Shown here piece by piece: positions 9,959 to 35,321 of a DNA stretch of 64,000 nt. This DNA is from a virus (Duplodnaviria; Heunggongvirae; Uroviricota; Caudoviricetes): positions 42,433 through 106,432 of the IMG/VR virus record IMGVR_UViG_3300025319_000008. One strand, written 5' to 3'. Position numbers and translations under genes: made by a program. The stretch's first letter is position 1; each line of letters starts with the position of its first letter. The notes below the pieces were generated by a model. It was not told the origin of the DNA, made no database searches, and saw only the letters and a program-made list of their open reading frames with translations.

Positions 9959-10885
9959 ATGAGAAAGAAATGGACAGAAAAAGAAATTGATTTTTTAATA
10001 GAAAATGTAAAAAAAATCACATTAAATGAAATAGCAGAAAAATTAGAAAAAAAAATAAGTGTAGTTAAATCTAAATTATATAAATTAGGTATATGCACTA
10101 TTAAATGGTCAAAAGATGAGGATGATTTATTACGTGAAAATTTTCCACTTAAACCAACAAGATTATTAATTGAATTATTTAAAAACAGAACTAGGAGTTC
10201 TCTTCTAAATAGAGCAACATTTTTAGGATTGAAGAGAAATAATGAAGCTAGATTTGTTTATAAAAAATATAAATACAATGTTAATCATAATTTTTTTGAT
10301 GATTTTTCACTTGAAAATTGTTATTGGGCTGGTTTTATATCAGCTGATGGATGTGTAAAACCTATTAATTCTTTATTAAGTATAAAATTAAGTAGTAAAG
10401 ATGTTGAGCATTTAGAAGTTTTTAAAAAAACAATAAATTCTAATGCTCCAATATTCATTAGAGATAACAACTCTTTTGGTACTGAACATAAATCAGCAAC
10501 TATAGACATATATTCAAAAAATATAATAAATAAATTAAAAATAAATTTTTTAATTACTAATAAAAAAACATTTACAGCAGTGCCTCCAACAATAAAAAAT
10601 TCAAATCAAAAAATAGCATTTATAATTGGGTTATTAGATGGGGATGGTTCAATATATAAAATTAATAATAATTTAAGAATAACATTTTTAGGCACATTAA
10701 AAATGCTTGAATGGATTAAAGAAACATTAAAAACAACATTATTTGTTGATGTGAATCAAAAAATACATCAAAAAGGTAAAATATATTCTTTTGCTATATC
10801 TAACAAACCAGTATTAAGTTTAATAGAGTGGGTTAAAAAAAATGAAATATATTATTTAAATAGAAAAATTGGAAAATATGTCTGA
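9959..10885 (+). CDS. freestanding LAGLIDADG homing endonuclease with an N-terminal HTH-like DNA-binding region
   Basis: YWAGFISADGCV and IGLLDGDGSI motifs ~100 aa apart; inserted between clpP and dnaJ, overlapping the dnaJ start. Confidence 0.75.
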   Translation: MRKKWTEKEIDFLIENVKKITLNEIAEKLEKKISVVKSKLYKLGICTIKWSKDEDDLLRENFPLKPTRLLIELFKNRTRSSLLNRATFLGLKRNNEARFVYKKYKYNVNHNFFDDFSLENCYWAGFISADGCVKPINSLLSIKLSSKDVEHLEVFKKTINSNAPIFIRDNNSFGTEHKSATIDIYSKNIINKLKINFLITNKKTFTAVPPTIKNSNQKIAFIIGLLDGDGSIYKINNNLRITFLGTLKMLEWIKETLKTTLFVDVNQKIHQKGKIYSFAISNKPVLSLIEWVKKNEIYYLNRKIGKYV

Positions 10886-12011
10886 AAAAGAAAGTCTCTA
10901 TAATATTCTTGAAGTAGACAAAACAGCATCTCAAGAAGAAATAAAACAATCTTATAGAAAATTAGTAAAAAAACATCACCCAGATAAGGGTGGGGATGAA
11001 AATACTTTTAAAAAAATTTCTAACGCATATGATATTTTATCCAACCCAGAAAAGAAAGCTAAATATGAAAACGATGGCATGTTTAATGATGGTGGTTTTG
11101 GATTTAATCCTCACAGTATGGCGGATGAATTATTTAGAAGGCATGCTGAATCATTTGGGTTTAGAGGTGGTAGTAGTAGACATGCTCAACAAACAAAAAC
11201 TAGAAGAGGTGGAGATTTAAAAATAAGAATTTCATTAACTATTCATGAATTAATTACAGGTGCACATAAAAAAGTAAAATTACAAAGAGAAATAAATTGT
11301 CCAGACTGTTCTGGAACTGGTGCTAAAAATAAAGAATCGATAGTAAAATGCAGTGTATGTGATGGTACTGGTATTGTTACAATAAGACAGAATACGCAAA
11401 TGGGAATGATGATTCAACAATACACTTGTCAGCATTGTGGTGGAGAAGGAAAAGAAATTAAAGAAAAATGCAATTCCTGTAAAGGACAAGGGATGATTTC
11501 GAATAGTGATGAAGTAGAATTTGATATTCCAGCCGGTGCAGTAGAAGGAATAAATTTAAACATTAATAACGTTGGAAACGAAGCAAGAGGCGGAGGGAAT
11601 AACGGAAGTCTTATTATTGAAATAACAGAGATTGAACATCCTATTTTTAAAAGAGAAGGCAATAATATTTTAACTGATGTTTTTATTAGTTATTATGATG
11701 CTGTGATTGGGAATGATTCTTTAGAAATAAATACTGTTGATGGAAACGTTAAAGTCAAAATAGAGCCAGGAACAGAGTCTGGCAAAATCCTACGTTTAAA
11801 AGGTAAAGGAATTCCTAATATAAATAATCCTTCTCAAAGAGGCGATCAAATGGTTTATGTAAATATTTTTGTTCCAAAGACATTAACAGAAGAAGAAAGG
11901 AAATCTATTACAGAACTTAAGAATGTTAAATCAGCTGAGCCGGATAGTGAAAAAACACAACATTTAAAAGGTGTTTATTCTCGCATTAGAGAATATGATG
12001 AATTGCATTAA
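10878..12011 (+). CDS. dnaJ: chaperone DnaJ (J domain plus four CxxCxGxG zinc-finger repeats plus C-terminal domain)
   Basis: YNILEV...HHPDKGG (HPD motif); CPDCSGTG, CSVCDGTG, CQHCGGEG, CNSCKGQG; ATG at 10878 (the ORF track start at 10869 is TTG). Confidence 0.9.
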   Translation: MSEKESLYNILEVDKTASQEEIKQSYRKLVKKHHPDKGGDENTFKKISNAYDILSNPEKKAKYENDGMFNDGGFGFNPHSMADELFRRHAESFGFRGGSSRHAQQTKTRRGGDLKIRISLTIHELITGAHKKVKLQREINCPDCSGTGAKNKESIVKCSVCDGTGIVTIRQNTQMGMMIQQYTCQHCGGEGKEIKEKCNSCKGQGMISNSDEVEFDIPAGAVEGINLNINNVGNEARGGGNNGSLIIEITEIEHPIFKREGNNILTDVFISYYDAVIGNDSLEINTVDGNVKVKIEPGTESGKILRLKGKGIPNINNPSQRGDQMVYVNIFVPKTLTEEERKSITELKNVKSAEPDSEKTQHLKGVYSRIREYDELH

Positions 12012-15834: not shown

Positions 15835-16404
15835 ATGATAACTCTACATTTTCCATATAAACTTGAGAGAAAAGTACTGTTTGAAAAAACAGGAATTAAT
15901 ACTGAAGATGATATTAAACATAATTTCGAAAAAATGAACTCAAAAAATAAAATTGCTATTTTTATATCTTCTATTATAAGTATGTTTTTTGCATACATAA
16001 CTACAGCATTTTTTGCTTTAAATTATAATTTAATATTTTGGAGCACGCCTTCCAGATTTATGTTTCTTATAATTTCTCTTATAGGAACCGCTCTTACTTA
16101 TTTTTACTGCAGTTATCAAGTTTCTATGCGGTATGATACTGAAAATAAACGTTATAATGAAATTGAAATAAAATCTTTAACTATAAACTGGTTTAAAAAG
16201 TTATTATCCATTTTTGTATTTTATTTTTTTACAGTATTCGGTTTTAGTTTAATTATTATATTTTGTACAATGAGTATAGATATAACAAAGATGAGTGATG
16301 GAGAAAGAGCAATAATGGGATTGTTTTTTTATATAGGAACAATAATATTTTGTTTGTTAGCTTATAATAATAATTTGAAATTCATTTTAAAAATAGAACA
16401 ATGA
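15835..16404 (+). CDS. membrane protein carrying an N-terminal KLERKVLFEK motif
   Basis: Four predicted TM helices; the motif is at residues 9-18. Confidence 0.45.
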   Translation: MITLHFPYKLERKVLFEKTGINTEDDIKHNFEKMNSKNKIAIFISSIISMFFAYITTAFFALNYNLIFWSTPSRFMFLIISLIGTALTYFYCSYQVSMRYDTENKRYNEIEIKSLTINWFKKLLSIFVFYFFTVFGFSLIIIFCTMSIDITKMSDGERAIMGLFFYIGTIIFCLLAYNNNLKFILKIEQ

Positions 16405-16619
16405 AAAAAGGTAAATCCTATCTATTCGAAGTTCCAGATGGTAAAAAGCTGGTAGCTCAGTTTGTTAAAACTGAAAATGGTTGTCATGTTTTAAAATTTA
16501 GTAAGTGCGATTGGAAGTTTTATTCCAACCGAACAAAGAAAATATCCACATCAAGATTTGAATCTGGTGTTGCTTGTTTTGAAGGGACTGACCATTTGAT
16601 ATTGAAAGAAATAAAATGA
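16401..16619 (+). CDS. hypothetical protein
   Basis: 72-aa ORF with ATGA overlaps on both sides. Confidence 0.35.
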   Translation: MKKGKSYLFEVPDGKKLVAQFVKTENGCHVLKFSKCDWKFYSNRTKKISTSRFESGVACFEGTDHLILKEIK

Positions 16620-17398
16620 TAGAAGATGTAAAATATAATTCCGAAGGGAAGTTATCTGTTAATCAAACTCTATTTGGAGACTGCCTTGAGGTTATGAAAT
16701 TAATTCAGGACAAATCCATAGATTTTATTTTTGCAGACCTTCCCTTCGGTTGAGAAACTACTCAATGTCCATGGGATTCCATAATTGACATTCCTAAATT
16801 ATGGGAACAATATGAACGTATTATTAAAGATAATGGTTGTATTGCTTTATTTGCTCAGACACCATTTGATAAAGTTCTTGGTGCCAGCAACCTGCCTTTA
16901 TTGAGATATGAATGGATTTGGGAAAAAACACATGCAACTGGGCATTATAATGCAAAGAAGATGTGTATGAAATCGCATGAAAACATTTTGATATACTATA
17001 AGAATCTTCCTACATATAATCCACAAAAAACAACCGGGCATAAACCTGTAAATTCATTTACCAAGAAAATTGATATTGGAAACAAGACAAGAGTTTATGG
17101 TAAAGGAAATAAAGAAATTGTTGGTGGAGGAAACACCGACAGATATCCAAGAAGTGTATTGAAATTTTCTTCTGATAAACAAAAAAATAAAAACACAGAA
17201 TTTATTCATGATACCCAAAAACCATTGGAGTTGTGTAAGTATTTCATTAAGACATATACCAATGAAGGTGATTTAGTTTTGGACAATTGTTCCGGCAGTG
17301 GCACAACCGGTTTAGCAAGCAAAGAGCTAAAAAGGAATTGGATAATGATTGAAAATGATGAGAAATTTTATGAAATGAGCAAAAGGAGGACTATCTAA
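16616..17398 (+). pseudogene. N-4/N-6 DNA methyltransferase (ParB-associated type) interrupted by one in-frame TGA at 16751-16753
   Basis: N-terminal part MIEDVKY...SIDFIFADLPFG (motif IV, DPPY-like) runs into TGA; the same frame continues as ETTQCPWDSII...EWIWEKT...TQKPLEL...VLDNCSGSGTT (C-terminal N4/N6 MTase motifs). Confidence 0.7.
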
Positions 17399-17639: not shown

Positions 17640-18002
17640 TCATTCTGATGCTTTACGTTTTTTTAAGCACTCGTTTATCTTATCAAATTTTGAATTTATT
17701 AAATTCATTGTATCTGTAAGTTTGTTCATTTTTAATGTTCTAATTTTATTTTTTGAAGCACGTTTGTAATTTTCTTTAAGCTTCGAATAATCTGTAGTAT
17801 CTGAAAAGCTAATTTTAAATATTTTAACAGAATCTATTTTTATTGAATCTAAAATTGATAACAAAGCTGAGTCTACCATTTCAAAAGAATGAATTGAGTC
17901 TGATTGAAATTTTTGACCACATTTTCTATCGCTTTGTTGAGCGCATGAAAAAATAATAAATAAAATAGATAAGTAAAAAAGGTATTTAATTTTATGCAAC
18001 AT
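17640..18002 (-). CDS. putative lipoprotein
   Basis: Signal peptide with LFIIFSC lipobox. Confidence 0.4.
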   Translation of the reverse strand: MLHKIKYLFYLSILFIIFSCAQQSDRKCGQKFQSDSIHSFEMVDSALLSILDSIKIDSVKIFKISFSDTTDYSKLKENYKRASKNKIRTLKMNKLTDTMNLINSKFDKINECLKKRKASE

Positions 18003-18262
18003 TATTTAGCAGTTATTATGTCGTATATTTTATCGGCTTTTTCATTTAACTTAGAAACCTCCTTCGTTAATTCATTTAAACGATAATCCATAACTTCCGG
18101 ATTGTATTTACTTAACTTATTTTCAAGTTCTATAACCTTAGCTTGATTATCATCTACTTTGAATTTCATTGTATAGTATATTCCCACCAATGAAGATATA
18201 TAAATAACTACCATAACAACTGTTTTTAAAGGTACGTTAAGTTTTTCTAAATCGATTGCCAT
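18002..18262 (-). CDS. small membrane protein
   Basis: ORF track 18002..18355; the internal Met at 18262 is the likely start; one TM helix. Confidence 0.3.
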   Translation of the reverse strand: MAIDLEKLNVPLKTVVMVVIYISSLVGIYYTMKFKVDDNQAKVIELENKLSKYNPEVMDYRLNELTKEVSKLNEKADKIYDIITAK

Positions 18263-18331
18263 GGTGGTTAATTTATAATAAATATTGCGTTTTTTATTTT
18301 TTCTTATATATTTACTTAAAAACTTACAGAT

Positions 18332-18490
18332 ATGAAAGAGAAAAAAGAAGAACAAAATGAAGTAAGATTAAACTTCATGGTTTCAAAAGAATTAAGAAAA
18401 AACTATAAAAAACATTGTATTAATAATGACATTGACATGTCAAAGAGAATACGAGAGCTTATGGAAATGGATTTAGAAGGGAAGATTTAA
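18332..18490 (+). CDS. small ribbon-helix-helix (CopG/Arc-like) DNA-binding protein
   Basis: 52-aa ORF not in the ORF track; beta strand VRLNFMVSKEL then two helices; ends 2 nt before the nuclease gene. Confidence 0.45.
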   Translation: MKEKKEEQNEVRLNFMVSKELRKNYKKHCINNDIDMSKRIRELMEMDLEGKI

Positions 18491-18491
18491 G

Positions 18492-19646
18492 ATGTCAAAA
18501 AAATTAACAACAGAAGAGTTTATTGAAAGAGCTAAAATTATACATGTAAACAGAATAACTAATGAATCAAAATATGATTACAGTTTAGTTGAATATAAAA
18601 ATAGCAAAACTAAGATTAAAATAATTTGTAAAGAACATGGTGTTTTTGAGCAAACGCCAAATGATCATTTATCTGGTTGTGGATGTGTTGAATGTTCTGG
18701 ACTCAAAAAATTAACAACCGAAGAATTTATTGAAAAGTCTAACAAAGTTCATAGTAATATATATGATTATTCATTAGTAGAATATTTTAACAATAATACA
18801 AAAGTTAAAATAATATGTAATAATCATGGAGTTTTTGAACAAATTCCAGCAAGTCATTTGGGTGGGCATGGATGTGGTAAGTGTGGCGGAACCGCATTAA
18901 GAAACACGATAGAGTTTATTGAAAAATCTATAATTATTTATGGATATACATATAATTATGAGTTAGTTGAATATGTTAATTCTATAATTAAAGTTAAGAT
19001 AATTTGTAAGAAACATGGTGTTTTTGAGCAATCACCAGATAAACATTTAGCTGGACACCAATGTCCTTTTTGCGGATTTGAAGAAAGTTCCTTAAAAAGA
19101 GCTAATACTTCTGAATATTTTATTGAAAAATCGAAAATTATACACATAAATGAAAAAACATGTGAACCAAAATACGATTATTCAAAAGTTAACTACGTTC
19201 AAAACAAAACTAAGGTAATAGTAATTTGTCCATTACATGGAGATTTTCAAATAACTCCAAGCTCACATTTGAATGGATATGGATGTAAAAAATGTAATTT
19301 TTCAAAAATATCAAAGGGAGAAAAAGGTATAATTGAATTTTTAAAAAAGAATAACATCGAATTTATACATCAACATAAATTTAATGATTGCATAGGAATA
19401 TCAAATAAATTACCATTTGATTTTTATTTACCAAAATACAATACTTGTATAGAATTTGATGGGAGACAGCATTTTGAATCAGTCAAAAAATTTGGAGGAG
19501 AAAAAAATTTTTTGGATATACAAAGAACTGATAACATAAAAAATAAATATTGTTTAAATAACAATATAAAACTTATTAGAATTTCATATTTAAATTTGAA
19601 AAATATAAATGAAATTTTAGAGAAAGAATTCAACTGTATTGAGTAA
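18492..19646 (+). CDS. zinc-ribbon repeat protein with a C-terminal PD-(D/E)XK (Vsr/DUF559-like) endonuclease domain
   Basis: Five ~60-aa repeats of KYDYSLVEY...K.KIICK.HGVFEQ.P..HL.G.GC..C; C-terminal LPFDFYLPKYNTCIEFDGRQHF; paralog at 34194..35321. Confidence 0.65.
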   Translation: MSKKLTTEEFIERAKIIHVNRITNESKYDYSLVEYKNSKTKIKIICKEHGVFEQTPNDHLSGCGCVECSGLKKLTTEEFIEKSNKVHSNIYDYSLVEYFNNNTKVKIICNNHGVFEQIPASHLGGHGCGKCGGTALRNTIEFIEKSIIIYGYTYNYELVEYVNSIIKVKIICKKHGVFEQSPDKHLAGHQCPFCGFEESSLKRANTSEYFIEKSKIIHINEKTCEPKYDYSKVNYVQNKTKVIVICPLHGDFQITPSSHLNGYGCKKCNFSKISKGEKGIIEFLKKNNIEFIHQHKFNDCIGISNKLPFDFYLPKYNTCIEFDGRQHFESVKKFGGEKNFLDIQRTDNIKNKYCLNNNIKLIRISYLNLKNINEILEKEFNCIE

Positions 19647-33959: not shown

Positions 33960-34053
33960 TTTATTAGAATGTAAAATTTTTTATACTATTTATAATTATA
34001 AGTAATACTTTACAATATAATAATAATGTTTTATAATTACCAAAACACTAAAA

Positions 34054-34197
34054 ATGGCTACGAAAACTAAAACATTCACATTACCAGAAGAAATTTTGGA
34101 AAAACTTGCTTCATATAGCGAGGAAAGCTTAATTCCTCAATCGGCATTAATTGCAAAGTTATTAAAAGAATTTTTTGAAAAAGAAAATAAAAAATGA
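34054..34197 (+). CDS. small ribbon-helix-helix DNA-binding protein
   Basis: 47-aa ORF not in the ORF track; KTFTLPEEILEKLASY...SALIAKLLKEFF; its stop overlaps the nuclease start (ATGA). Confidence 0.45.
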   Translation: MATKTKTFTLPEEILEKLASYSEESLIPQSALIAKLLKEFFEKENKK

Positions 34198-35321
34198 GTG
34201 GGAAAGCTATAAGTATTGAAAAATTTATTTTTAATGCAAAACAAATTCATGGAGAAAGGTACGATTATTCAAAATTTGAATATGTTAATTCCTCAGTAAA
34301 ATCCACAATTATATGTGAGAAACATGGCGAATTTTTACAATCTCCAAGAAATCACATGAAAGGATATAATTGTAAGAAATGTATGTACGAAGGAGAAAGA
34401 ACATTACCAAGTAAACATACTTTAGAATCATTTATTATTAAATCAAATGAAGTTCATGATAATAAATACGATTATTCAAAAGTGGTATATAAAAATAATA
34501 AACAACCAATTATTATAATTTGTCCAGAGCATGGAGAATTTAATCAAAGACCTGATAGTCATTTAAGTGGAAGGGGTTGTATTTATTGTTCAGGAACGTA
34601 TCAATATGCAAAAGAAGATTTTATAAAAAAATCTAATGAAAAACATAATAATAAATACGATTATTCTGAAGTTTTATACACAAAAAATGATAATAAAGTA
34701 ACAATAATTTGTAATAAACATGGAAAGTTCAGTCAATTAGCCAAAGACCATTTAAGAGGACGCGGATGTGACATATGTAGTGGTGGATATGTTGGAACTA
34801 AAGAAATATTTTTGGCAAAATCTTTTGAAGTTCATGGAAATACTTATAATTATGATAATGTAAAATATGTAAATAACCAAACAAAAGTAGATATAATTTG
34901 TAATAAACATGGTATTTTCAAACAAAGGCCAGCAATGCATTTATTTGGAAATGGTTGTCCAAAGTGTTCAAATTTTTCAAAAGGAGAAATTAAAATTACT
35001 AAAATTTTAGAAGAAAAAAATATAATATTTACATATCAAAAAACTTTTGATGATTGTAAAAATGTTTTTAAATTACCTTTCGATTTTTATTTACCAGATT
35101 ATAATACTTGTGTAGAATTTGATGGAGCTCAACATTTTAAAGCTTTTAAATACTTTGGTGGTGAAAAAACATTTAAAGCAAGGCAACTAAACGACCAAAT
35201 AAAAAACGAATACTGCAAAAACAATAACATTCCATTATTAAGAATTCCTTACTGGGACTTTAAGAACATTGAGACTATATTGACTGATTATTTAAAGTCA
35301 ATCCTTATCAACTCTAATTAA
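34194..35321 (+). CDS. zinc-ribbon repeat protein with a C-terminal PD-(D/E)XK (Vsr/DUF559-like) endonuclease domain; paralog of 18492..19646
   Basis: Five repeats (C..HG.F.Q.P..H..G.GC..C) plus LPFDFYLPDYNTCVEFDGAQHF. Confidence 0.65.
   Translation: MSGKAISIEKFIFNAKQIHGERYDYSKFEYVNSSVKSTIICEKHGEFLQSPRNHMKGYNCKKCMYEGERTLPSKHTLESFIIKSNEVHDNKYDYSKVVYKNNKQPIIIICPEHGEFNQRPDSHLSGRGCIYCSGTYQYAKEDFIKKSNEKHNNKYDYSEVLYTKNDNKVTIICNKHGKFSQLAKDHLRGRGCDICSGGYVGTKEIFLAKSFEVHGNTYNYDNVKYVNNQTKVDIICNKHGIFKQRPAMHLFGNGCPKCSNFSKGEIKITKILEEKNIIFTYQKTFDDCKNVFKLPFDFYLPDYNTCVEFDGAQHFKAFKYFGGEKTFKARQLNDQIKNEYCKNNNIPLLRIPYWDFKNIETILTDYLKSILINSN

What the first reader, a model, noticed from the sequence alone, without database searches (positions are those of the whole stretch)
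18332..19646. RHH plus Zn-ribbon-repeat PD-(D/E)XK nuclease two-gene module, copy 1
An unannotated 52-aa ribbon-helix-helix ORF (18332..18490) ends 2 nt before a 384-aa protein (18492..19646). That protein is built from five ~60-aa zinc-ribbon repeats (KYDYS.V.Y...K.KIICK.HGVFEQ.P..HL.G.GC..C) followed by a Vsr/DUF559-like PD-(D/E)XK endonuclease domain (LPFDFYLP.YNTCIEFDGRQHF). The same RHH-nuclease pairing recurs 16 kb away at 34054..35321. The module could be a mobile homing-type nuclease with its own repressor, or a toxin-antitoxin-like pair (RHH antitoxin, nuclease toxin) carried by the phage.
Basis: partly seen in the sequence, partly recalled or inferred. Interest (0 to 1): 0.6.

Follow-up and report, generated by a model that had tools for sequence, protein, structure and literature searches.

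The report
Homing nuclease with its own repressor
A huge phage carries two copies of a selfish two-gene cassette, a site-specific DNA-cutting enzyme preceded by a tiny DNA-binding protein that most likely controls the cassette's expression; the same small protein family also sits next to several unrelated selfish nucleases.

Summary
Both ORF pairs exist as described, but each nuclease has four zinc-ribbon repeats, not five.

- **Small ORFs.** Both are real ribbon-helix-helix (RHH) proteins. ORF1 has 35 homologs, its profile hits the RHH protein SvtR (7.7e-5), and its AF2 model has pLDDT 90. ORF2 matches Pfam RHH_3.
- **Accessory cassette.** Three related huge phages keep both flanks but lack the cassette.
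- **Pairing recurs.** In Streptococcus thermophilus phages, an ORF2 homolog and a nuclease homolog form one 1.24-kb insertion/deletion between terS and terL.
- **Not nuclease-specific.** ORF1 homologs sit directly upstream of GIY-YIG/NUMOD, HNH, Vsr-like and TnpB nucleases. This argues against a cognate toxin–antitoxin pair.

I read the module as a free-standing homing endonuclease gene with a portable Arc-type repressor and promoter. That role was recently shown for the Arc protein of IS605 transposons. The nuclease is a new member of a known kind, and the RHH-headed cassette is a new variant. DNA binding, repression and cleavage are all inferred, not shown.

The parts
18263..18331 (+). Intergenic region upstream of RHH1, divergent from the - strand gene that starts at 18262. 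It carries the conserved 7-mer ATATTTA (18308-18314) and its reverse complement TAAATAT (18279-18285). Candidate cassette promoter/operator.
   Evidence: ATATTTA is invariant upstream of 10 RHH1-family genes. It sits at -12 in seven loci, -14 in one, -24 here and -30 in L164. The function is inferred.
18332..18490 (+). RHH1: a 52-aa ribbon-helix-helix protein (extended strand about residues 10-17, helices 19-31 and 36-48). R12, C29, S37 and R41 are conserved.
18492..19301 (+). Nuclease 1, N-terminal DNA-binding array of four tandem treble-clef zinc-ribbon repeats (aa 1-70, 71-133, 134-196, 197-270). Each carries C-x2-H ... C-x2-C.
   Evidence: Regex and self-comparison. Pfam DUF4379 6.8e-9, plus DUF723.
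19302..19646 (+). Nuclease 1, C-terminal Vsr-like (EDxHD-type) endonuclease domain. Invariant residues: E277 (19320-19322), D310 (19419-19421), E321 (19452-19454), H327 (19470-19472), D347 (19530-19532). K350 is nearly invariant.
33960..34053 (+). Intergenic region upstream of RHH2, divergent from the topoisomerase-like gene. It contains a sigma-70-like TTTACA-17-TATAAT (34009-34037) whose -10 hexamer ends 16 nt before the start codon.
   Evidence: Promoter scan, 11 of 12 matches. Consensus match only.
34054..34197 (+). RHH2: a 47-aa Arc/CopG-type ribbon-helix-helix protein. Its stop overlaps the start of nuclease 2.
   Evidence: Pfam RHH_3 8.8e-6, above threshold. phrog_3180 Arc-like repressor 1.9e-9. 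Best PDB hit CopG. 54% identical to Arc-like proteins of S. thermophilus phages.
34194..35321 (+). Nuclease 2: a 375-aa paralog of nuclease 1 (48% identity), with four zinc-ribbon repeats and the Vsr-like domain carrying the same invariant residues.

Best explanation
Each module is a free-standing homing endonuclease cassette that has inserted antisense into a block of phage genes.

- **The enzyme.** The large gene encodes a site-specific endonuclease. Four tandem treble-clef zinc-ribbon modules (DUF723/DUF4379, CapR-like) would read a long DNA target. A C-terminal Vsr-like domain of the EDxHD homing-endonuclease type (I-Bth0305I/Hef) would cut it. In a mixed infection, a break in a cassette-less relative would be repaired from the cassette-bearing genome, which copies the cassette and its flanking DNA across.
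- **The small gene.** It encodes a minimal Arc/CopG-type ribbon-helix-helix dimer at the head of the cassette, just downstream of a promoter-like element that travels with it. I infer that it binds this promoter region and represses transcription of itself and the nuclease. That would keep a potentially genome-damaging enzyme low or timed, and make the cassette independent of the host phage's own transcription.

Shown here: the ORFs, the folds, the intact catalytic residues, conservation of the small proteins, recurrence of the pairing, presence/absence polymorphism, and RHH-family neighbours of four nuclease types. Inferred: DNA binding by the RHH, repression, target cleavage and homing.
For: **Nuclease**
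- PHROG families annotated as homing or intron-encoded endonucleases match at 4e-88 to 1e-17.
- E277, D310, E321, G324, H327 and D347 are invariant across 35 diverse relatives. The D-to-H spacing of 17 residues equals that of I-Bth0305I D196-H213 (PMC3239194).

**RHH fold**.

**Mobility**
- Three related huge phages keep g802-g565-g147 on one side and g189, MTase or g349 on the other. None has a homolog of RHH1 or nuclease 1.
- In S. thermophilus phages, an RHH2 homolog (2e-12) and a nuclease homolog (2e-40) form one 1.24-kb indel between terS and terL.
- Pseudogenised relatives exist.

**RHH as a portable regulator rather than a nuclease-specific partner**
- RHH1-family genes lie immediately upstream of several nuclease types: GIY-YIG/NUMOD3 homing endonucleases (L173, L174, L178-L181), an HNH nuclease (L177), a Vsr-like nuclease (L164) and TnpB (L191, L192).
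- A conserved ATATTTA element sits at a fixed distance upstream of these RHH genes.
- RHH-bearing relatives are enriched for antisense-island placement, 5/9 versus 16/100, Fisher p = 0.013.
- The RHH protein Arc, encoded next to TnpB in IS605 elements, was shown experimentally to repress the element's promoter. That study also noted Arc genes next to homing endonucleases (bioRxiv 10.64898/2026.09.24.754181).
Against: - No DNA-binding, repression, cleavage or homing data exist for these proteins.
- No convincing operator repeat could be separated from AT-rich background. No sigma-70-like promoter was found upstream of copy 1.
- Only about 6% of nuclease relatives in IMG/VR have a coupled RHH-like ORF (10 of 160 loci). 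The RHH is therefore dispensable for this nuclease family.
- One RHH1-family member precedes a 362-aa protein with no nuclease signature (L190).
- The site in related phages is a generally variable region, not a clean empty site.
- The orientation statistic rests on crude ORF calls and nine cases.
Confidence: 0.6

Rival explanations
1. Type II toxin-antitoxin pair. The nuclease is a toxin, and the RHH protein is an antitoxin that binds and inhibits it and autoregulates the operon.
For: - The small RHH gene lies upstream and is translationally coupled, which is the canonical antitoxin-toxin layout.
- The A2 RHH profile weakly hits the antitoxin Rv0298.
Against: - RHH1 and RHH2 are 52 and 47 aa and end about four residues after helix 2. 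They have no toxin-binding extension.
- The same RHH family pairs with GIY-YIG, HNH, Vsr-like and TnpB nucleases, which is hard to reconcile with cognate protein-protein inhibition.
- In S. thermophilus phages the pair is divergent, not an operon.
- About 94% of relatives have no partner.
- The nuclease carries a long multi-module DNA-reading array, typical of site-specific homing enzymes.
Confidence: 0.1
2. Domesticated nuclease used in phage-phage or phage-satellite conflict. It would cut competing genomes, as the ICP1 Odn nuclease does or as in T4 marker exclusion, rather than spread itself. The RHH would be its regulator.
For: - Two diverged paralogs are kept intact in one 503-kb phage.
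- All 23 near-identical contigs read carry the identical protein.
- Zinc-finger homing-endonuclease domains are known to be co-opted in phage-satellite conflicts (PMC10448857).
Against: - Nothing distinguishes this from ordinary homing, because marker exclusion is a by-product of homing nucleases.
- Presence/absence polymorphism and pseudogenised relatives fit a selfish-element life cycle.
Confidence: 0.15
3. The RHH acts at the DNA level as a partner of the nuclease rather than as a transcription factor. It could occupy and protect the carrier genome's own target site (immunity), or act as a targeting or loading cofactor.
For: - RHH genes are tightly co-inherited with the nuclease as one indel.
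- The DNA-contacting strand residues R12 and N14 are conserved across the RHH1 family.
Against: - The partner nucleases already carry their own DNA-binding arrays.
- The conserved upstream element lies at a promoter-like position next to the RHH start.
- The only experimentally studied relatives (IS605 Arc) are promoter repressors.
Confidence: 0.1
4. Coincidental neighbours. The RHH genes are resident phage regulators, or chance ORFs, next to which a nuclease gene happened to land.
For: - RHH1- and RHH2-like genes also occur without an adjacent, recognisable nuclease (L190).
- The two RHHs in the window are unrelated in sequence.
Against: - RHH1 is absent together with the nuclease in three relatives.
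- RHH and nuclease are a single indel in S. thermophilus phages.
- Coupled upstream ORFs with a gap of 2 nt or less are RHH-like in all 10 cases found. The only other candidate ORFs have gaps of 3-18 nt or a 10-nt overlap, and they look like low-complexity junk.
- 35 homologs and a confident fold exclude chance ORFs.
Confidence: 0.05

Closest known systems
EDxHD / Vsr-like homing endonucleases (I-Bth0305I of Bacillus phage 0305phi8-36; Hef of T4-like phages) (PMC3239194)
   Same: - The conserved E, D, H, D residues are present, with the same D-to-H spacing.
- The domain order is the same: N-terminal DNA-binding region, C-terminal nuclease.
- The setting is the same: a phage-borne selfish gene.
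   Different: - DNA binding is by four treble-clef zinc-ribbon repeats instead of NUMOD/HTH motifs.
- The gene is free-standing, not intron-encoded.
- It is preceded by its own RHH gene.
- Sequence similarity to I-Bth0305I is not significant on its own (E 0.92).
T5orf172/GIY-YIG homing endonucleases with repeated CapR/DUF723/DUF4379 zinc-finger arrays (Vibrio phage ICP1 and others; PMC10448857)
   Same: - The same kind of repeated zinc-finger DNA-binding modules, with variable copy number.
- Placement at boundaries of genetic exchange. L185 versus L184 shows synteny breaking at a homing endonuclease gene.
   Different: - The catalytic domain here is Vsr-like, not T5orf172.
- That study does not mention an RHH partner. 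The paper is absent from the full-text search hits for 'ribbon-helix-helix' or 'RHH'.
Arc of IS605-family transposons (bioRxiv 10.64898/2026.09.24.754181)
   Same: - A minimal RHH protein encoded next to a selfish nuclease.
- An RHH1-family member (P0146) lies directly upstream of TnpB.
- Arc was shown to repress the element's own promoter.
- The preprint notes Arc genes next to homing endonucleases.
   Different: - There is no TnpA, TnpB or transposon ends here.
- The partner is a protein-guided homing endonuclease in a phage.
- Repression has not been tested for these proteins.
Controller (C) proteins of restriction-modification systems, and I-TevI autorepression
   Same: A small DNA-binding regulator, or the nuclease itself, limits and times expression of a dangerous nuclease from the element's own promoter. 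This comparison rests on established knowledge, not on a test made here.
   Different: - C proteins are helix-turn-helix proteins, not RHH.
- I-TevI represses through its own DNA-binding domain, without a separate protein.
Type II toxin-antitoxin modules with RHH antitoxins (CcdA, ParD, RelB, HicB)
   Same: A small RHH gene precedes and overlaps the gene for a potentially toxic enzyme.
   Different: - There is no toxin-binding tail.
- The pairing is promiscuous across nuclease folds.
- Divergent arrangements exist.
- The nuclease carries a site-specific DNA-reading array.

Membership tests
EDxHD (Vsr-like) homing endonucleases | Vsr-like alpha/beta nuclease fold | tested here: met
   [not shown]
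EDxHD (Vsr-like) homing endonucleases | Conserved catalytic E, D, (x), H, D residues | tested here: met
   E277, D310, H327 and D347 are invariant and D323 is mostly conserved in 35 relatives. Equivalence to E/D196/N208/H213/D222 is taken from the HMM alignment to 3r3p and from spacing, not from a residue-level superposition.
EDxHD (Vsr-like) homing endonucleases | NUMOD/HTH-type N-terminal DNA-binding region, as in I-Bth0305I | tested here: not met
   The N-terminus is four DUF4379/DUF723 zinc-ribbon repeats. This feature describes the prototype, not the catalytic family.
EDxHD (Vsr-like) homing endonucleases | Site-specific double-strand cleavage and homing into cassette-less alleles | not testable with these tools
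   Needs cleavage assays and mixed infections.
Free-standing homing endonuclease genes | Presence/absence polymorphism at a syntenic site in related genomes | tested here: met
   L186-L188 keep both flanks and lack the cassette. A clean 1.24-kb indel lies between terS and terL in S. thermophilus phages for the copy-2-type pair.
Canonical PD-(D/E)XK nucleases | D ... (D/E)-x-K motif with the lysine two residues after the acidic residue | tested here: not met
   The motif reads D310 ... E321-F-D323-G-x-x-H327. The lysine position is not conserved there, as in the Vsr branch. K350 lies on a later helix.
DUF559 (PF04480) | Significant match to the Pfam model | tested here: not met
   [not shown]
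Ribbon-helix-helix (Arc/CopG/MetJ) superfamily | Strand-helix-helix topology, with sequence or profile similarity to known RHH proteins | tested here: met
   [not shown]
Ribbon-helix-helix (Arc/CopG/MetJ) superfamily | Dimerisation and operator binding through the paired strands | not testable with these tools
   Only a monomer was modelled. R12 and N14 on the strand are conserved.
Type II toxin-antitoxin system | Antitoxin with a toxin-binding region in addition to the DNA-binding fold | tested here: not met
   The proteins are 52 and 47 aa, and helix 2 ends at residue 48 of 52.
Type II toxin-antitoxin system | Cognate antitoxin-toxin pairing conserved across homologs | tested here: not met
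   RHH1 homologs pair with GIY-YIG/NUMOD, HNH, Vsr-like and TnpB proteins.
Type II toxin-antitoxin system | Toxicity of the large protein, neutralised by the small one | not testable with these tools
   Needs expression experiments.
IS605-family element with Arc | TnpA and/or TnpB genes and transposon ends next to arc | tested here: not met
   The downstream gene is the Vsr-like nuclease, and the neighbours are phage genes. Only the RHH family is shared.

The most novel reading that the evidence does not exclude
A minimal Arc-type RHH gene with its own promoter is a portable 'control head'. It has been combined repeatedly with unrelated selfish nucleases: Vsr-like, GIY-YIG, HNH and RNA-guided TnpB. 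It would form a general regulatory, or possibly self-immunity, device that lets homing nucleases insert in any orientation, independent of host transcription. If so, there is a common and so far unstudied layer of control over homing endonuclease activity in phages. It is experimentally accessible in cultured S. thermophilus phages that naturally differ by the cassette.
Probability: 0.3. Interest if true: 0.7.

Novelty: new variant of a known kind. Interest (0 to 1): 0.5.

Why it matters
How free-standing homing endonucleases are kept from harming their carrier, and how they are expressed when they land antisense to host genes, is poorly understood outside a few T4 examples. A dedicated RHH partner shared with TnpB transposons would link the regulation of protein-guided and RNA-guided selfish nucleases.

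It would also correct database labels. These proteins are variously called "HNH endonuclease", "very-short-patch-repair endonuclease" or "hypothetical".

Finally, it points to a tractable test system: dairy phages with and without the cassette between terS and terL. The modular zinc-ribbon array fused to a compact nuclease may also interest enzyme engineers.

Tried and rejected
- **Direct PDB search.** Sequence search of the full nuclease against PDB gave only noise.
- **NCBIfam.** Nothing found.
- **Flank relatives in IMG/VR.** Searching with the 565-aa and topoisomerase-like neighbours found nothing. Relatives had to be reached through the protein collection instead.
- **RHH1 homolog search.** The word-indexed search found only RHH1 itself. 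The exhaustive HMMER scan was needed.
- **Operator repeats.** Repeat searches upstream of both RHH genes gave only AT-rich, low-confidence repeats. The 10-mer around the conserved element is not enriched in the window.
- **L185.** I examined it as an empty site for a GIY-YIG cassette. It turned out to be a synteny break, not a clean deletion.
- **Cellular genomes.** The scan gave six loci, all metagenome-assembled contigs; two of them have the same lengths as IMG/VR viral contigs found earlier.
- **RHH-nuclease fusions.** None among 120 relatives.
- **Frameshift fusion.** Considered and dropped. The frames differ, and there is no slippery context in either copy.
Full report
**1. Observation**

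- Copy 1: a 52-aa ORF at 18332-18490, one base before a 384-aa ORF at 18492-19646.
- Copy 2: a 47-aa ORF at 34054-34197, overlapping (ATGA) a 375-aa ORF at 34194-35321.

The large proteins are 48% identical paralogs. Each has four, not five, repeats of YDYS..Y...K..IIC..HG.F.Q.P..H..G..C..C, with a C-x2-H ... C-x2-C ligand pattern. Pfam places the repeats in DUF4379/DUF723 treble-clef zinc fingers. No further copy lies in the window.

The window comes from a 503-kb contig, CACVIJ010000001.1 (GCA_902731165.1), a huge phage. Both small ORFs are called as genes there.

**2. The nuclease**

PHROG families annotated as endonuclease, homing endonuclease or intron-encoded nuclease match strongly (3.9e-88 to 1e-17). 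Pfam DUF559 does not match the window proteins.

An alignment of 35 diverse C-terminal domains shows E277, D310, E321, G324, H327 and D347 invariant and K350 nearly so. A profile of this alignment picks the Vsr-like domain of AbaSI (0.07) and the I-Bth0305I catalytic domain (0.92) as top PDB hits, both below significance.

I-Bth0305I is the prototype of the EDxHD homing endonuclease family, which also includes the Hef enzymes of T4-like phages (PMC3239194). The 17-residue spacing between D310 and H327 equals that between its D196 and H213.

The classical ExK lysine is absent, as in Vsr.

The family is very large. 7,974 of the 8,000 candidates scored were significant, and 954 phage records hold a relative. 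It is essentially viral. Repeat number varies from two to five or more among relatives. This matches what has been described for CapR/DUF723/DUF4379 arrays on T5orf172 homing endonucleases (PMC10448857).

**3. The small proteins**

*RHH2.* It passes the Pfam RHH_3 threshold (8.8e-6) and matches PHROG 'Arc-like repressor' (1.9e-9). Its best PDB match is CopG.

*RHH1.* It had no Pfam hit and no relatives in the word-indexed search. An exhaustive HMMER scan of 1.84 billion representatives found 35 homologs of 47-124 aa at E <= 1e-3.
- Their alignment has invariant C29, S37 and R41.
- Its profile hits the RHH regulator SvtR (2kel) at 7.7e-5 and ParG at 0.21.
- The AF2 model (pLDDT 90) has an extended N-terminal segment followed by helices 19-31 and 36-48.

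Both are therefore genuine minimal RHH proteins. They are not detectably related to each other.

**4. Is the pairing real?**

Among 160 IMG/VR loci that encode relatives of the nuclease, ten have an upstream same-strand ORF of about 50 aa with a gap of 2 nt or less. All ten show the RHH sequence pattern, although their individual profile matches are weak. The only other candidate upstream ORFs have gaps of 3-18 nt or a 10-nt overlap, and they look like low-complexity junk.

At least four RHH sequence families are involved:
- A3, which includes RHH1 and the L164 protein (41 bits);
- A2, with eight members;
- the RHH2 type;
- the L056 type.

None of the 120 closest relatives is fused to an RHH.

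RHH2 has 45-55% identical relatives annotated 'Arc-like repressor' in Streptococcus thermophilus phages. There the neighbouring 'hypothetical protein' is a homolog of nuclease 2 (33% identity, 2e-40). It is transcribed divergently, and the pair lies between terS and terL.

**5. Mobility**

All 23 near-identical contigs read carry the cassette.

Three more distant huge phages were examined, with g565 at 38-55% identity. They retain g802-g565-g147 on one side and g189, the methyltransferase or g349 on the other. They have no homolog of RHH1 or nuclease 1 at E <= 1e-3. The interval is a variable strand-switch region, so this is presence/absence polymorphism rather than a clean empty site.

A clean case exists for the copy-2-type pair.
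- Of 215 S. thermophilus phage records with this terS-terL region, only 11 cover at least 80% of the query.
- In CHPC572, terS is followed by terL after 6 nt.
- Relative to it, P7154 has a 1.24-kb insertion that contains both the nuclease and the RHH gene.
- Between P7154 and SW2, the RHH and intergenic DNA are 94% identical, while the nuclease has a different repeat array.

Frameshifted relatives occur (L002, L003, L014, L073). These features fit a selfish homing cassette of which the RHH gene is a part.

**6. What the RHH is for**

The neighbours of RHH1-family genes are the most informative evidence.

| Loci | Gene directly downstream of the RHH1-family gene |
|---|---|
| L173, L174, L178-L181 | GIY-YIG/NUMOD3 proteins matching PHROG 314 'homing endonuclease' |
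| L177 | HNH endonuclease |
| W1, L164 | Vsr-like nuclease |
| L191, L192 | TnpB (OrfB_IS605 plus Cas12f-like TNB) |
| L190 | 362-aa protein with no Pfam hit |

In most of these loci the downstream gene starts within a few bases of, or overlaps, the RHH stop. In L191 and L192 the gap is 86 and 17 nt.

One small RHH family thus heads cassettes with four unrelated nuclease folds. That is hard to explain by cognate protein-protein neutralisation. It is natural for a DNA-binding regulator that travels with a promoter.

Three further observations are consistent with this.
- The 7-mer ATATTTA is invariant upstream of ten RHH1-family genes. It sits at -12 in seven, -14 in one, -24 in the window and -30 in L164. 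The background frequency is 0.45 per kb.
- Twelve of 18 RHH-headed cassettes have both immediate neighbours on the opposite strand.
- Among non-redundant Vsr-like relatives, 5 of 9 RHH-bearing genes are antisense islands, against 16 of 100 RHH-less ones (Fisher p = 0.013; crude ORF calls, small n).

A 2026 preprint shows that Arc, the RHH protein next to TnpA/TnpB in IS605 elements, binds and represses the element's promoter. It also remarks that Arc genes occur next to homing endonucleases. The RHH1 family includes TnpB-adjacent members, which links the two observations.

**7. Mechanism proposed**

The cassette is a self-contained transcription unit of promoter, RHH gene and nuclease gene. 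The RHH dimer binds the promoter region and limits or times expression. The nuclease recognises a long site through its zinc-ribbon array and cuts with the Vsr-like domain. Repair from the cassette-bearing genome spreads the cassette.

The steps from 'RHH binds' onward are inferred. I put the probabilities as follows:
- the nuclease is an EDxHD-type homing enzyme: about 0.85;
- the small ORFs are RHH DNA-binding proteins: about 0.85-0.9;
- they act as cassette repressors: about 0.55-0.6.

**8. Rivals**

- *Toxin-antitoxin pair.* The layout fits, but the minimal RHH, the promiscuous pairing, the divergent arrangements and the roughly 94% of relatives without a partner argue against it (0.1).
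- *Domesticated competition nuclease.* It cannot be separated from homing with these data (0.15).
- *DNA-level immunity or cofactor role for the RHH.* Not excluded (0.1).
- *Coincidental adjacency or chance ORFs.* Largely refuted (0.05).

**9. Novelty and score**

The nuclease is a new member of a known kind, an EDxHD catalytic domain on a known type of zinc-finger array. It is widely present but mislabelled in databases.

The RHH-headed cassette is a new variant. Full-text searches found no study of RHH partners of phage homing endonucleases beyond the passing remark in the Arc preprint.

Interest is 0.5. The result is not categorically new. It is a recurrent and testable regulatory association that spans four nuclease superfamilies, and cultured phages are available to test it.

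Noticed in passing
window 18308-18314, and loci L164, L173, L174, L176-L181: The 7-mer ATATTTA is invariant upstream of ten RHH1-family genes. It sits at -12 from the start codon in seven of them, which suggests very short or leaderless transcripts. W1 and L164, the two with Vsr-like nucleases, share an extra AACTTACA spacer before the ATG.
   Followed up: partly
L189 (Streptococcus phage P7154), L200 (CHPC572), L201 (SW2): In cultured S. thermophilus Moineauvirus phages, an Arc-like RHH gene and a homolog of the window nuclease, annotated 'hypothetical protein', form a 1.24-kb indel between terS and terL. SW2 also has terL annotated as two CDS, possibly interrupted by another element.
   Followed up: partly
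L191 1266-2698, L192 279-1546: A member of the RHH1 family (P0146) lies directly upstream of a TnpB (OrfB_IS605 plus Cas12f-like TNB) gene. This links the family to the Arc proteins of IS605 elements.
   Followed up: partly
L180 2992-3360 and protein P0133: Some RHH1-family proteins carry a C-terminal extension of about 70 aa (122-124 aa in total) of unknown function, upstream of a GIY-YIG homing endonuclease.
   Followed up: no
L170 2800-2928: One relative of the nuclease is preceded, 14 nt upstream, by a 42-aa ORF that looks like a helix-turn-helix (excisionase/MerR-like) protein instead of an RHH.
   Followed up: no
L002, L003, L014, L073: In these loci the match to the nuclease spans several reading frames, so these relatives appear frameshifted or decaying. 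L014 still keeps an intact RHH-like ORF upstream.
   Followed up: no
window 9959-10885: The 308-aa product of this gene had a faint precomputed LAGLIDADG_3 hit in an identical contig (L085). It may be another homing endonuclease, next to a DnaJ-like gene (10869-12011).
   Followed up: no
window 16901-17398: The N6/N4 DNA methyltransferase ORF (136-165 aa depending on the start) is 87% identical to the C-terminal part of a 251-aa homolog in the related phage L186. It may be truncated or split here. The 16404-16900 interval holds only small ORFs.
   Followed up: no
window 17640-18262 (- strand): The two small genes (120 and 86 aa) between the cassette and the methyltransferase block are also absent from the three related phages. 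The whole 17.6-19.6 kb interval is therefore a variable region at a strand switch.
   Followed up: partly
L184 versus L185: Two phages that are 76-82% identical at the DNA level lose synteny exactly at the 3' end of a conserved 422-aa gene, where an RHH plus GIY-YIG cassette sits in one of them. This is an example of a nuclease gene at a boundary of genetic exchange.
   Followed up: partly
databases (PHROG 559; JGI names; nr): Relatives are labelled 'HNH endonuclease' (PHROG 559) or 'very-short-patch-repair endonuclease' (JGI), and RHH1 is listed as a hypothetical protein of an 'uncultured archaeon'. The fold evidence says Vsr-like homing endonuclease in a phage.
   Followed up: no
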